From assembly GCA_951406725.2 (NCBI GenBank), contig OX597834.1:31062001-31126000 (forward strand): a stretch of DNA of 64,000 nucleotides, in the 5' to 3' direction. The DNA is from Octopus vulgaris. Lineage: Eukaryota. Both the position numbers and the translations under genes were made by a program. Under the pieces are notes generated by a model. The model made no database searches. It had not been told where the DNA came from and saw only the letters and a program-made list of their open reading frames with translations. This document shows positions 1 through 59,853 of this stretch, piece after piece (the stretch's first letter is position 1; each line of letters begins with the position of its first letter).

Positions 1-23
1 GCAACGCCGGGCGATACTGCTAG
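1..23 (+). mobile_element. 3' end of a non-autonomous Helitron, truncated by the window start
   Basis: GCAACGCCGGGCGATACTGCTAG|T is identical to the 3' termini at 1032-1054 and 15090-15112 (hairpin arm, CTAG end, followed by T). Confidence 0.75.
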
Positions 24-37
24 TATATATATATATA

Positions 38-306
38 ATCAAAATAAGCAACAAGAATGACTCCGGTAATTTGGTACGATCGTTTCGTACTACATCATTT
101 TATTAAACGTTTTAAGTATTACAACAGATTTAAGTTGCTGAGTACTCATCAGCCAATTATAGAGGTTTTCCATTAATACAAAAATTTTCAAATCAGGTGG
201 CAACATTATAGAGAAGGTAGATATATAGACAAAGATGTGGATTTGAATGTTAAGAACATATGAGATAGTAGAGTCCACTGACTGACTAAAATCTGGTTGT
301 TCTGAC
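38..306 (-). mobile_element. Hammerhead-bearing short element (Penelope-like pLTR or retrozyme-like remnant) between (TA)n tracts
   Basis: About 270 bp of non-simple sequence bounded by TA runs on both sides and containing a canonical hammerhead. Family assignment is inferred from known PLE-associated hammerheads. Confidence 0.5.
68..158 (-). ncRNA. Type I hammerhead ribozyme, canonical core
   Basis: Minus strand reads TTGG-CTGATGA-GTACT-[49 nt]-AGTAC-GAAA-CGATCG-TA-CCAA. Stem I TTGG/CCAA, stem II GTACT/AGTAC, palindromic stem III, GUA cleavage triplet (cut between 75 and 74). Confidence 0.85.
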
Positions 307-661
307 TATAATATATATATATTATACACATTATATTATTTTTGTAATTTACTTAATCTTTACTTTTTATTGTTATTTAATTTTAACTTTTCTATTATAT
401 GTAATTTTCTAGATGGTGTAATTTAATTATTCATTTTGAATTGATAAAAGGTGTTTTTTTTTCTTATATTTTATATATATATTGTATTGTGTGGAATTTG
501 ATTTAGTATTTCTTAATTGAATTCTTTTTCCTTGTAAGTTTGGATTTTATTCCCTCAAATAATAATTATATATATATATAATTATAAAGTTAATCCAAAC
601 AAGACAGCACAAAAAACAAAACAAAAACACAACAACGCGAGGACGTGGAACAAATAATATA

Positions 662-5150: not shown

Positions 5151-6980
5151 GTGCAGCCAAGTCTCCCCACTAGTGTGGAGAACAGGTTGTTTGCTGGGCG
5201 GGTTTTCATCGCCAAAGCAAGAAGTTTTTCAACGTTGTTAAGAAGAAACAGAAGCAGGGGGGAAAAAAAAACGGACATATAAACTAATACAATCGCCGAG
5301 AGGAGAGAGAAAAAGGAAGGACACACAACCTACATATATATATATTTATATATACACATAAATATATATATATACACGCGTACATTTACAACGAGGTGGA
5401 ACAGTACTTATTCATACATTTTTATACACCACATATTTCTACATACATATATATTATATATGATTTACCCTTTACATACTGATATATACACGTATATATT
5501 ATACATTTTCAGACACATATATCTTACACGCTCAATTTTATACACGTAGAGTGGATGTTGGAAGCTGCTCTTTATGGCAACCCTCCATCAACCATCACCA
5601 CGATCGCTATATTTCTTCAAAGCCTTTCTATTGCCCTGACACTCTAGGTGTGTGTATGTGTGTATATATTTACGATCTGTATGTATATCTGTCTATCTAT
5701 GTGTATATAAGTGTGTAGTAGTGGTTCGTGGTAGCTTGTGTTTGTGTTTGTGTGGTGTTATTATCATGTGTACAGTTGTGTGTGCTGCGTGGTGTCGCCA
5801 GTGCGTGCGGGCGCGAGACTGCGTGTTGTTGTGCGTCGATGTGTGAGTCTTGCGTGCCCCCGTGTTTTGTGCCCCACTCTATATGTATGTGTGTGTGTGT
5901 GCGTATGTGTCTCCGTGTGTGTGTGTGTGACTGTGGTATGAATATGCGTGGTGCGGTGCGGTGCATGTGTGTGTGACAGCGCACGTGTCCATGTATGTGT
6001 GTGTGCGCGCGGTTGTGTGTGTGGAACCAGACAGCAGAAAGGAGTATAAACAAACCGACCCTCCTCCTTAGTGACACTACTACTACTACTACTACCACCA
6101 CAACAACAACAATATATGCACACATACTACTACTACTACTACAAGAAACACCTCTACTTTCAACCTGAAAACCCCCTGCCAGTAGTTCGATGCATTGGTG
6201 GAGGGGGTTTCTATTTGGATCACTCGGTACCGTTTAAAATCTTTTATATTTTTGGCTACACACACACACATACAAACACATATATAAATCGCATATCTAT
6301 ACCCCATCTCCCTCTCTCTCTCTATATATATACATATATTATTATCTTGATATATATATTTTTGGATCTTCCCCGACCTCTGCTCTCTGTGTGTTTTATT
6401 TTTCTGTTGCTATCGGAGGAAAAGGAAGACTTATTTTTTTTTGCATATAATTCTTCAAAGACGGGAGATTAATTAATAGCGGAAGGAAGGAAGAAAGGAA
6501 TAAGACGACTACATACAACAGCAAAAAAAAAAAAAAAAAAACGTGATTGCACAACAACAACAACAACAACAGTAGCAGCAACAACAATAATTGTACTATA
6601 AAAAAAAAAGAAGGAGGTGTTTAAGGAAACAAGATTGGATCCAACGCCCGTGGTGTCTTCGGGTGTATTTACCGATTCCCACGGCTCCGAAGAAATTCTC
6701 TTACATTCTCGATCCATCATCATCAGCAGTCATCCAGCCTTCCACCTTCGTCCTCCTTCATCATCGTTCGTTTCTACATCACCTTTATAAATCTTCTTCA
6801 CCTTATATCGTCGTTGCTGTTGTTGTTAATGTTGCTATTAACGTCGTTAACGTTATCACTATCATCATCTTCATCGTTATTATTATCACCACAACCACGA
6901 TCATCATCATCATCATCATCATCATCATTGTCGTCGTCTTCGTCTTCGTCGTCGTTTTCATCGACGTTGTTATCATCATC

Positions 6981-7122
6981 ATGATTCAGCATTCGGAAAA
7001 ACTGGATTCCATGAACGGATTGGTGCCTGTATCTTCTCCGACGTCGGCAGCTGCCGCGGCCGCTGCTGCTGTTGTCGCAGCCGCCACCGCCGCCGAACCC
7101 TCTCTAGCTGACACTGTCGAAG
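6981..7122 (+). CDS. Probable first coding exon of an unidentified gene (MIQHSEKLDSMNGLVPVSSPTSAAAAAAAAVVAAATAAEPSLADTVE; phase-1 donor)
   Basis: ATG with A at -3, abrupt GC/CpG-rich codon-like sequence, mixed-codon poly-Ala tract, and a consensus donor AAG|GTAAGT at 7122/7123. No recognisable domain. Confidence 0.7.
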
Positions 7123-7249
7123 GTAAGTGTGATCATTGATTATATATATATATATATACACACACACATATATATATATATATATAAATAAATATATATA
7201 AAGTTCTATGTTTCTATATCTTGCTATATATATTAATCGATATATCTAT

Positions 7250-14729: not shown

Positions 14730-15112
14730 TCTCTCTATATATAAACGGCAGTTTGTCTGTCTGCGTGTCTGTGTGTCTGTTAGGTTGTACCCTCACCCTG
14801 ACCACGGCTTTCAACCGATTCTGATGAAACTTGACACACACATAGCCCAATGTCATAATTCAAAACTAATGCAGCGAAAATTTTGAAAAGTTCCCCCAGT
14901 TCTGAAAAAAATCGATAAATTCGACATGGGGTCGAGAATCAGAAACACAAACCACAGACTGTCTAGGTGATGCAACTCGACCTTTTTAACTCTCAAAAAA
15001 ATTTACCATCATTTCTTTTCCATTTTTTTGCTATTTTTTGGCTATAACTCTCTAAAAATGCTTTATAGTTATTTCCCTTACAAACCCGAGCAACGCCGGG
15101 CGATACTGCTAG
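14730..15112 (+). mobile_element. Non-autonomous Helitron inserted at A|T
   Basis: Starts A|TCTCTCTATATATAAA, ends with hairpin plus CTAG|T. The opposite arm of the palindrome shows the empty site with no TSD. Confidence 0.9.
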
Positions 15113-15190
15113 TATATATATAAAAGAAGAAAAAGAAAATGGAGATTGGAAAGATAATGATTGTTTATTATTTATAGCAAATTAATCATC

Positions 15191-15280
15191 TTTCCTTACA
15201 GCTGTTTCAATTAATACTTAATGAATACCAAGTAAATATTAAATTTATATGACCTGGGTGTACTATCTTCAGAGTGGGAA
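15191..15280 (-). ncRNA. Degenerate hammerhead motif, left arm of palindrome
   Basis: CTGAAGA-TAGTAC..GTATTA-ATT-GAAA-CAGCTG-TA-AGGAAA. Core and palindromic stem III intact; stems I and II imperfect. Confidence 0.5.
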
Positions 15281-15372
15281 AAAAAATATACCCTTGGGTG
15301 TTTTATATGTGTTTATGGATTCAGTCTGCTATAATGAATCCATAAACACATATAAAACATCCAAGGGTATAT

Positions 15373-15466
15373 TTTTCCCCCTCTCTGAAGATATTACACC
15401 CAGGTCATATAAATTTAATATTTACTTAGTATTCATTGAGTATTCATTGAAACAGCTGTAAGGAAA
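15373..15466 (+). ncRNA. Degenerate hammerhead motif, right arm of palindrome
   Basis: CTGAAGA (15385-91), 57 nt, GAAA (15449-52), CAGCTG-TA-AGGAAA. Stems I and II eroded. Confidence 0.5.
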
Positions 15467-15547
15467 GATGATTAATTTGCTATAAATAATAAACAATTAT
15501 TATCTTTCCAATCTCCATTTTCTTTTTCTTCTTTTATATATATATAT

Positions 15548-42222: not shown

Positions 42223-42272
<50 letters not shown>

Positions 42273-42275
<3 letters not shown>

Positions 42276-42515
42276 GGAGTTAAACCAGGTGTTATTCAAA
42301 TTCTTTTACTTCCGACATATGTTTCGAAGATATCACTGATAGTATTCCAAAGGAATAAAATGGTGTAAAACAATGTAATCTTCTCTTCAGAGAAGTGAAG
42401 AAATGAAACTCGTCAATAAGTCTGATTGAAACAAATAATAACAGACAAAAGATGCAAGCGAGCAAGGGATTGTATCAGACACCCTTATGCCTCTACAAGG
42501 GAAAAAATACACACA
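42273..42515 (-). mobile_element. Hammerhead-bearing short element between (TA)n tracts
   Basis: About 240 bp unique segment bounded by TA-rich microsatellites and containing a canonical hammerhead. Confidence 0.5.
42308..42396 (-). ncRNA. Type I hammerhead ribozyme, canonical core
   Basis: Minus strand ACTTCT-CTGAAGA-GAAGAT-[46 nt]-ATCTTC-GAAA-CATATG-TC-GGAAGT. 6-bp stems I and II, palindromic stem III, GUC triplet (cut between 42314 and 42313). Confidence 0.88.
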
Positions 42516-59748: not shown

Positions 59749-59853
59749 TGTTGCCTGATGAGTTGGTAGCTTATCTAACATATTACACAATCTAATTAAT
59801 TGTATTCTGCTTACATCAAAATGAAAACTCCTAACGAAACAACTGTAGCAATA
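59749..59853 (+). ncRNA. Type I hammerhead ribozyme, canonical core, sense to the putative host intron
   Basis: TGTTGC-CTGATGA-GTTGG-[64 nt]-CTAAC-GAAA-CAACTG-TA-GCAATA. 6-bp stem I, 5-bp stem II, GUA triplet (cut after 59847). Confidence 0.82.

What the first reader, a model, noticed from the sequence alone, without database searches (positions are those of the whole stretch)
68..158. Hammerhead architecture with a giant stem II loop and 8-nt palindromic stem III
Seen: this motif and those at 42308, 59749 and 15.2-15.5 kb share a canonical core, a 46-64 nt AU-rich insertion in domain II, and stem III as an 8-nt (near-)palindrome (ACGATCGT, ACATATGT, ACAACTGT, ACAGCTGT), with no other sequence similarity. 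Typical PLE minimal hammerheads have short stem II loops, so standard models may miss these. Inference: the palindrome is weak in cis and should favour dimeric cleavage, while the large loop could carry cargo or make tertiary contacts.
Basis: partly seen in the sequence, partly recalled or inferred. Interest (0 to 1): 0.8.

Follow-up and report, generated by a model that had tools for sequence, protein, structure and literature searches.

The report
Octopus retroelement hammerheads with long arm
The motif is a complete hammerhead (self-cutting RNA) pattern at the tail of a Penelope-like jumping gene in what is likely an octopus genome; its 'giant loop' is predicted to be a long folded arm, kept by paired base changes and missed by standard searches, and it likely cuts only when two copies pair up.

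Summary
Window 156-71 (minus strand) has an intact type I hammerhead core, a 59-nt domain II and a palindromic 8-nt stem III. Three of the five named motifs pass a descriptor that no shuffle passed in its strict form. The motif lies in a 274-bp, 5'-truncated copy of a Hydra-clade-like Penelope element inserted in (TA)n, with about 1,800 candidate relatives in this probably octopus genome.

Hammerheads in these elements, and dimer cleavage through a palindromic stem III, are known; this scan saw short-stem forms on other DNA.

What is new is domain II. It is not a loop but a long irregular hairpin with compensatory changes across 25 copies spanning the subfamilies; the window copy is decayed. 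Such arms (42-70 nt) make up 17 of 48 hammerheads in a random 1 Mb. The published descriptor (loop 2 at most 10 nt) and Rfam's threshold miss them. In two lineages the arm carries a conserved A(A/U)UAAA about 24 nt before the cut site, possibly a poly(A) signal; this is untested. Cleavage is untested. Side lead: octopus Naiad tails hold a permuted, pseudoknotted hammerhead pattern.

The parts
34..307 (-). 5'-truncated copy (family A) of a Hydra-clade-like Penelope element: 3' UTR / pseudo-LTR end, flanked by (TA)n on both sides
   Evidence: 46 matches, 45 others at 92-96% identity; contiguous with a GIY-YIG endonuclease end about 570-1350 nt upstream in longer copies
153..156 (-). stem I 5' strand (pairs with 74-71)
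   Evidence: 3 of 4 pairs change on both sides across subfamilies
146..152 (-). core CUGAUGA (C3-A9)
87..145 (-). domain II, 59 nt: basal stem II, internal loop, middle helix, A-rich bulge, terminal hairpin
108..126 (-). terminal 7-8 bp hairpin with a 3-nt loop; broken in this copy by substitutions at 112 and 108
   Evidence: (table 3)
99..104 (-). AAUAAA hexamer, 24 nt before the predicted cut (candidate poly(A) signal)
   Evidence: 91 of 97 copies; 23 of 24 rows
76..86 (-). GAAA core plus 8-nt palindromic stem III segment (83-76)
74..75 (-). predicted scissile bond after GUA
   Evidence: hammerhead consensus; not tested
71..74 (-). stem I 3' strand
40..60 (-). U/GU-rich tract conserved across subfamilies, between the cut site and the insertion end
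   Evidence: 6-mers kept in 19-22 of 24 rows
42272..42420 (-). family B tail fragment with long-arm hammerhead (core 42390, cut 42314|42313, domain II 58 nt); Hydra-type, young intact relatives have a 778-aa ORF
59749..59853 (+). family C tail fragment with long-arm hammerhead (core 59755, cut 59847|59848, domain II 74 nt); old family, Hydra-type endonuclease upstream in one locus
15122..15535 (.). family D inverted pair of tail fragments; cores at 15385-15460 (+) and 15272-15197 (-), domain II 57 nt, stem II decayed here; clade not assigned

Best explanation
The motif is the type I hammerhead pattern in the 3' tail (pseudo-LTR) of a Hydra-type Penelope-like retroelement, here in a short decayed insertion; its domain II is predicted to fold as one long irregular hairpin that the element lineage has kept by compensatory changes, and it likely cuts only when two copies pair through the palindromic stem III. 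Shown: core, element context, covariation, and two hammerheads 4.2 kb apart in a full pLTR-ORF-pLTR copy. Inferred: dimer cleavage between the two pLTR copies of one transcript, probably helped by the element's protein as in the anole Poseidon element. Uncut (or re-joined) RNA serves as the reverse-transcription template, because insertions end beyond the cut site. The arm leaves the catalytic core alone and serves as a platform; in lineages A and C it likely carries a poly(A) signal that would set the mRNA end near the cut site. The copy at 68-158 is most likely a passive relic.
For: Descriptor against shuffles. Contiguous Hydra-type endonuclease upstream of the motif, with no microsatellite between, in many loci. 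Full copy L240 has RWK, DKT, RT and C-terminal endonuclease, with hammerheads at 775 and 4974. On 25 subfamily-spanning rows, 92.2% of cells pair, 10 of 21 pairs change on both sides, 48 such cells against 13.5 (0 of 500 shuffles), and slid controls pair 25-54%. RNAalifold on its own predicts basal stem II and the terminal hairpin, 7 of 13 pairs compensatory. Fold z-scores -3.6 to -4.6 for 4 of 4 other A-lineage copies and -4.6 for a D copy. The dimer model beats two monomer hammerheads in 4 of 4 sequences. Of 97 copies, 55 end 25-55 nt and 35 end 115-165 nt past the cut, 7 have no end found, and none ends at the cut. This matches Frangieh 2024: internal RT starts, uncut template, protein-assisted hammerhead.
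Against: No cleavage or RNA-end data. The named structure was drawn from these sequences and the rows are related, so the shuffle counts overstate significance. For the terminal hairpin alone only 2 of 8 pairs covary (227 of 500 shuffles reach that), though cell counts exceed all shuffles. RNAalifold predicted neither stem I nor stem III. The hammerhead fold is not the monomer MFE in 4 of 4 sequences, and for the window copy the dimer beats two MFE monomers by only 1.6 kcal/mol. The youngest intact B subfamily has a U4C core in 9 of 9 copies viewed, which may mean relaxed catalysis. The hexamer is absent from domain II in families B and D and in most other long arms, is partly paired in predicted folds, and no poly(A)-tailed genomic copy was found (0 matches).
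Confidence: 0.75

Rival explanations
1. The arm is a regulatory switch. It half-hides a poly(A) signal inside the ribozyme, so that polyadenylation near the cut site (mRNA for translation) competes with ribozyme folding and with read-through RNA that carries the RT start sites.
For: A(A/U)UAAA lies 23-29 nt before the cut in 91 of 97 A-lineage copies and toggles between the two canonical variants (83 and 8). It is kept in 23 of 24 rows, a level reached among about 190 6-mers only by four core 6-mers and one hairpin 6-mer. A U/GU-rich tract is conserved downstream. The hexamer is present in 13 of 25 old family C copies. B-lineage relatives carry one just after the cut. A distant Hydra-type element has the hexamer as its short loop II (L382, one case, read by eye).
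Against: The sequence is AU-rich. The hexamer is absent from domain II of B, D and most unassigned long arms. No A-tailed copy was found. Conservation could equally reflect a protein-binding or A-minor motif. No RNA 3'-end data.
Confidence: 0.3
2. The arm is a binding platform for the element's RT-endonuclease protein (or a host double-stranded-RNA protein) that licenses ribozyme folding; cleavage is secondary.
For: Arm length clusters at 54-59 nt across unrelated sequences (11 of 17 long arms), which suggests a size constraint. Invariant unpaired positions exist. The Poseidon hammerhead needs its protein.
Against: No binding test. In the Poseidon element the binding region was placed in the ORF start. 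Other Hydra and Neptune elements manage with domains of about 9-25 nt.
Confidence: 0.25
3. The arm is a tolerated, functionless expansion; selection only keeps it folded so that it does not disturb the core.
For: Stem II is the variable arm of hammerheads. Arms of different families share no sequence. Loops of 29-35 nt are listed for two spike-moss PLE-X elements.
Against: Narrow length range; conserved architecture and sequence motifs over endonuclease divergence down to 63% identity; no shrinking by deletion except single copies (1 of 40 listed, L261).
Confidence: 0.25
4. The motif is a vestigial, non-cleaving hammerhead kept for another structural role.
For: Low or no in vitro activity is reported for metazoan PLE hammerheads. 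The U4C core is fixed in the youngest B subfamily. The hammerhead fold is not the monomer MFE.
Against: Core positions are invariant or nearly so across 25 rows, with free variation at N7. Stem III changes keep self-complementarity (pair 84-87 changes on both sides in 4 rows).
Confidence: 0.15

Closest known systems
Hammerheads of Hydra-clade Penelope-like elements (Craig et al. 2021, PMC8557442, File S2), including Hydra-1_Obim of Octopus bimaculoides
   Same: Type I hammerhead near the 3' end, sense strand, near-palindromic stem III, often an extra nucleotide after A9, (TA)n targets, RWK/DKT motifs, C-terminal endonuclease without CCHH
   Different: Listed Hydra loop 2 is 3-10 nt (8 nt in Hydra-1_Obim); here domain II is 54-74 nt and folds as a long hairpin; stem III segment is 8 nt rather than mostly 9-10; family A unit is 4.2 kb with an Asn-rich insert
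Minimal hammerheads of metazoan PLE pseudo-LTRs (Cervera and de la Pena 2014, PMC4209133)
   Same: Location in both pLTRs, palindromic helix III, dimer model, many dispersed truncated copies and inverted pairs
   Different: Their descriptor allows stem II of 3-7 bp and loop 2 of 3-10 nt, so it excludes this form; the 'larger than usual' helix II there is 7-8 bp
PLE-X1 hammerheads of spike mosses (Craig 2021, File S2)
   Same: PLE hammerheads with a long loop 2 (29 and 35 nt), marked as deviating
   Different: Other clade and kingdom, endonuclease-less, shorter, no 8-nt palindrome, no structure analysis of the loop seen
Poseidon element of Anolis (Frangieh et al. 2024, PMC11167929)
   Same: RT starts at two sites beyond the hammerhead, which fits the two clusters of insertion ends here
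   Different: Other clade; the ORF starts inside the hammerhead there, about 300 nt downstream here; the two ends here lie about 100 nt apart
Rfam RF00163 Hammerhead_1
   Same: All 45 model positions align, core intact
   Different: 51-nt insert; 19.6 bits, below the gathering score of 34

Membership tests
Type I hammerhead ribozyme | CUGANGA / GAAA / NUH core in order, with stems I-III | tested here: met
Type I hammerhead ribozyme | Covariation in stems I and II | tested here: met
   3 of 4 and 4 of 5 pairs change on both sides
Type I hammerhead ribozyme | Site-specific self-cleavage | not testable with these tools
   only assembled contigs could be laid
Type I hammerhead ribozyme | Loop I - loop II tertiary contact | tested here: inconclusive
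   extended alignment shows no covarying contact
Rfam RF00163 | Score at or above the gathering threshold (34 bits) | tested here: not met
   19.6 bits; 0 hits in 4 loci
min-HHR of Cervera 2014 | Stem II 3-7 bp with loop 2 of 3-10 nt | tested here: not met
   descriptor read; domain II is 59 nt
min-HHR of Cervera 2014 | Palindromic 15.2-16.2 / loop 3, located in both pLTRs | tested here: met
Hydra clade of PLEs | Single ORF with RT and C-terminal GIY-YIG endonuclease | tested here: met
   Pfam GIY-YIG 22.8 bits, RVT_1 E 5e-4 below cut-off, intact 778-aa ORF in family B; family A copies seen were broken
Hydra clade of PLEs | RWK motif and DKG changed to DKT | tested here: met
   read by eye: L240 has RWK and DKT; L351 has RWL and DKT
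Hydra clade of PLEs | CxCX5C linker; CxxC and CxH; no CCHH | tested here: met
   family A, read by eye; family B lacks the CxCX5C linker
Hydra clade of PLEs | Insertion into (TA)n | tested here: met
   90 of 97 copies end in a TA run within 200 nt
Hydra clade of PLEs | Generally shorter than 3 kb | tested here: not met
   family A unit 4.2 kb (L240); family B about 2.9 kb meets it
Hydra clade of PLEs | Placement with named Hydra families in an RT tree | not tested
   named reference proteins were not available to the tools; the endonuclease tree of unnamed relatives is unresolved
Non-LTR retrozymes | Tandem non-coding repeats of about 300 bp, each with a hammerhead | tested here: not met
   copies are single or inverted tail fragments contiguous with coding PLE sequence
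Naiad clade of PLEs | N-terminal endonuclease, no canonical hammerhead | tested here: not met
   endonuclease is C-terminal and the core is canonical

The most novel reading that the evidence does not exclude
Octopus Hydra-type retroelements have evolved an overlooked, abundant class of hammerheads (tens of thousands of copies) whose extended stem II embeds a poly(A) signal, so that polyadenylation and self-cleavage aim at the same spot and switch the RNA between mRNA and retrotransposition template. Together with a permuted, pseudoknotted hammerhead in Naiad tails, this would mean that PLE ribozymes are far more varied than catalogued and that the Naiads said to lack them may not.
Probability: 0.3. 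Interest if true: 0.75.

Novelty: new variant of a known kind. Interest (0 to 1): 0.5.

Why it matters
What hammerheads do in Penelope-like elements is still open (in vitro they are dispensable for insertion in the one element tested). A natural, covarying 55-70 nt extension of stem II is invisible to the published descriptor and to Rfam's threshold, so hammerhead censuses of such genomes undercount: about 17 per Mb here, roughly 48,000 by extrapolation. Young intact elements carry the arm in both pseudo-LTRs and give a direct test system. The embedded hexamer offers a testable link between ribozyme and 3'-end processing.

Tried and rejected
Expression and cleavage: no RNA holder was listed on record; the 4 runs laid were contigs, with no end pile-ups or joints. 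This is no evidence either way.

Poly(A)-tailed genomic copies: 0 exact matches for one family A pattern.

Neptune origin of families C and D: suspected from nearby ORFs and rejected. The L077 endonuclease is on the other strand and the L102 RT lies beyond a TA run. D stays unassigned after extension.

Host-wide trait of all PLEs: rejected. A very young Neptune-like family has a 9-nt domain II with a U3-A8 core (27 of 29 loci), and Hydra-1_Obim has an 8-nt loop.

Single origin of the arm: unresolved. The tree had three rows out of frame and was discarded; one search has 3 of 20 branches well supported.

Two other young Hydra-type families (L386, L387): the stretches held show no hammerhead and probably end too early.

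Census: first versions (12 and 26 hits) left out U3-A8 and U4C cores and overstated the long share; the final count is. Six of 48 hits (83-94 nt, one repeat family, weak stems) are not counted as long-arm hammerheads.

Metagenome relatives: none for the family A RT; 10 loci for a distant protein, of which I read the 3' ends of 2 and found one hammerhead.

Copy-level selection: 3 of 384 changes at core positions against 77 of 3390 in the upstream UTR; weak, and biased by choice of best hits.

One fold (15387-15441) was shifted by a few bases; it was redone.

Literature searches that found no description of this long-arm class. Arkhipova 2017 and Lunse 2017 are not held and could describe such variants.

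Full report
**Observation.** The minus strand of 156-71 holds every hammerhead core element in type I order, with a 59-nt domain II and a self-complementary 8-nt stem III; the predicted cut is 75|74. A descriptor run over both strands found this motif and those at 42390 (-) and 59755 (+). The strict form gave 3 hits against 0 in 200 shuffles, the loose form 3 against a mean of 0.075. The 15.2-15.5 kb site is an inverted pair with intact cores but decayed stem II, and fails the descriptor. Rfam misses the class: RF00163 scores 19.6 bits against a threshold of 34, and four loci gave no hit at threshold.

**Context.** The window lies in a 2.8-Gb genome of 227 contigs. I infer an octopus: a 22-nt motif from the published Naiad_Ovul tail has 175 exact matches. 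The motif sits in a 274-bp element (34-307) bounded by (TA)n, with 1,809 first-look candidates, 40 of them scored. Longer copies run upstream without a break into a GIY-YIG endonuclease end. A nearly full copy (L240) shows pseudo-LTR, ORF, pseudo-LTR, with the hammerhead in both repeats 4.2 kb apart, and carries RWK, DKT, CxCX5C, CxxC and CxH without CCHH (motifs read by eye). These are the marks of the Hydra clade as defined in Craig 2021. Family B (42308) is also Hydra-type and has young copies with an open 778-aa frame and the long arm in both repeats. Family C (59749) follows a Hydra-type endonuclease in one locus. Family D could not be assigned.

**The 'loop' is a helix.** I aligned 25 rows: the window copy, 21 chosen from the 40 endonuclease-linked motifs listed (endonucleases 63-94% identical to the query) and 3 from the random sample. 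RNAalifold predicts basal stem II and a terminal 7-bp hairpin; 7 of 13 pairs show compensatory change. For the named hammerhead structure, 92.2% of cells pair and 10 of 21 pairs change on both sides, against 25-54% pairing in slid controls. Caveats: the rows are related and the structure was drawn from them; the terminal hairpin alone has only 2 of 8 covarying pairs; stems I and III were not predicted by RNAalifold. Domain II of four sister copies folds at z -3.6 to -4.6, the window copy at -1.1. Three substitutions (135, 112, 108) separate the window copy from the common form in this domain, which is why it looked like an open loop.

**How common.** In 100 evenly placed 10-kb stretches (1 Mb) a descriptor with four core spellings found 48 motifs against 0-2 per shuffled Mb. 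Seventeen have a domain II of 42-70 nt (15 of them with an 8-nt stem III segment), 25 have 9-38 nt, and 6 (83-94 nt, weak stems, one repeat family) are doubtful. That extrapolates to roughly 48,000 long-arm motifs, a lower bound because decayed copies fail. The trait is not host-wide: a very young Neptune-like family has a 9-nt domain II (27 of 29 loci), and the published Hydra-1_Obim has an 8-nt loop. Whether the arm arose once is unresolved.

**Mechanism.** Shown: anatomy, context, covariation. Predicted: stem III gives no stability in cis, while a dimer joined by two 8-bp palindromic helices beats two monomer hammerheads in 4 of 4 sequences; for the window copy it is only 1.6 kcal/mol below two alternative monomer folds. 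Inferred: pairing of the two pseudo-LTR copies of one transcript, probably aided by protein. Insertion ends lie 25-55 nt (55 of 97) or 115-165 nt (35 of 97) past the cut and never at it, so the RT template was intact across the scissile bond. This agrees with the anole Poseidon element. The window copy has no partner of its family in the window and is most likely a relic.

**Possible cargo.** A(A/U)UAAA lies 23-29 nt before the cut in 91 of 97 A-lineage copies with a readable core (17 of 114 were dropped for a damaged core). It is kept in 23 of 24 rows, on a par with core 6-mers, and a U/GU-rich tract follows the cut. That is the layout of a poly(A) site (established knowledge, recalled). Against it: the hexamer is absent from domain II in B, D and most other long arms; it is present in 13 of 25 C copies; it is partly paired in predicted folds; and no A-tailed copy was found. 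I put this at about 0.3.

**Known versus new.** PLE hammerheads, palindromic stem III and dimer cleavage are published. The long structured arm was not found in print in searches. The nearest cases are 29-35 nt loops in two spike-moss elements. The 'long helix II' of viral type I hammerheads is 6-8 bp. The Cervera descriptor caps loop 2 at 10 nt.

**What I saw of each paper.** Craig 2021: abstract, passages, sections 6 and 11, supplement parts 2 and 24, and term searches. Cervera 2014: parts 1-2 of 4 and supplement passages (one file not searchable). Li 2026 preprint: part 1 of 5, supplements not seen. Cervera 2020, Perreault 2011 and Weinberg 2019 (PMC6765202): passages. Lopez-Galiano 2026 and Frangieh 2024: abstract and passages. 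Eckert 2023: passages and section 13. Arkhipova 2017 and Lunse 2017: not held, nothing seen; they may bear on novelty.

**Side lead.** Octopus Naiad tails, flagged only as 'half core' by Craig, hold all hammerhead parts in a pseudoknotted order: stem II 5' strand, then stem III 3' strand with the cut site and stem I 3' strand, then stem II 3' strand with GAAA and stem III 5' strand, then stem I 5' strand with CUGAUGA. A descriptor for this order hit 11 of 15 Naiad loci, and 7 places in the random Mb against 0-3 in five shuffles; 6 of the 7 have 6-bp stem I and 5-6 bp stem III in different sequences. It resembles type SGC of Eckert 2023 but is open between A9 and stem II, which that paper assumed fixed. 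No copy lies in this window, and cleavage is untested.

**Verdict.** A real feature and a new structural variant of a known kind. Interest 0.5.

Noticed in passing
L361-L375 (e.g. L364:1478-1555 +); L115:6426-6500 +, L162:9389-9478 +, L180:2751-2835 +, L187:5988-6068 + and a second L187 hit on -, L203 on -; Naiad records in the Craig 2021 supplement: Permuted, pseudoknotted hammerhead pattern (order of type SGC but open between A9 and stem II) at Naiad 3' ends, with stems I-III kept in different sequences and G10.1-C11.1 conserved; 7 hits per random Mb against 0-3 in shuffles. By eye, similar tails occur in other Naiads of the supplement. Only the L361-L375 family is tied to Naiad. Not found in print in searches. 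Possibly more novel than the assigned finding.
   Followed up: partly
L277-L305 (e.g. L285, L294, L299): Very young Neptune-like PLE family with many identical copies and open frames of 811 aa; its hammerhead has a U3-A8 core and a 9-nt domain II (27 of 29 loci).
   Followed up: partly
L351-L359: Youngest intact family B elements (778-aa ORF) carry a fixed U4C core in 9 of 9 copies viewed, and lack the cysteine linker before the endonuclease.
   Followed up: partly
L386 (G000:C1:64220540-64221500), L387 (G000:C2:201958055-201959000): Two further young Hydra-type families, one with open frames of 727 aa; their hammerheads were not reached.
   Followed up: partly
L114:7095-7227 +, L142, L144, L204, L126, L192: High-copy repeat (6 per Mb) with a hammerhead-like core, an 83-94 nt two-hairpin middle and weak stems I and II; perhaps a degenerate ribozyme in a SINE-like element.
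   Followed up: no
L236-L243 ORFs: Family A proteins carry long Asn-rich low-complexity inserts between RT thumb and endonuclease, and 3' UTRs of about 570-1350 nt before the hammerhead.
   Followed up: no
L382:1146-1190 +: Hydra-type element from a metagenome record with a short domain II whose loop holds AAUAAA (read by eye).
   Followed up: no
window 1-23 and 15090-15112: The same short repeat end abuts the TA run beside both the family A copy and the family D pair; it belongs to another dispersed repeat that also sits next to TA runs.
   Followed up: no
window 6591-7139 +: Open frame with a poly-Ala stretch near its end that may include a host exon.
   Followed up: no
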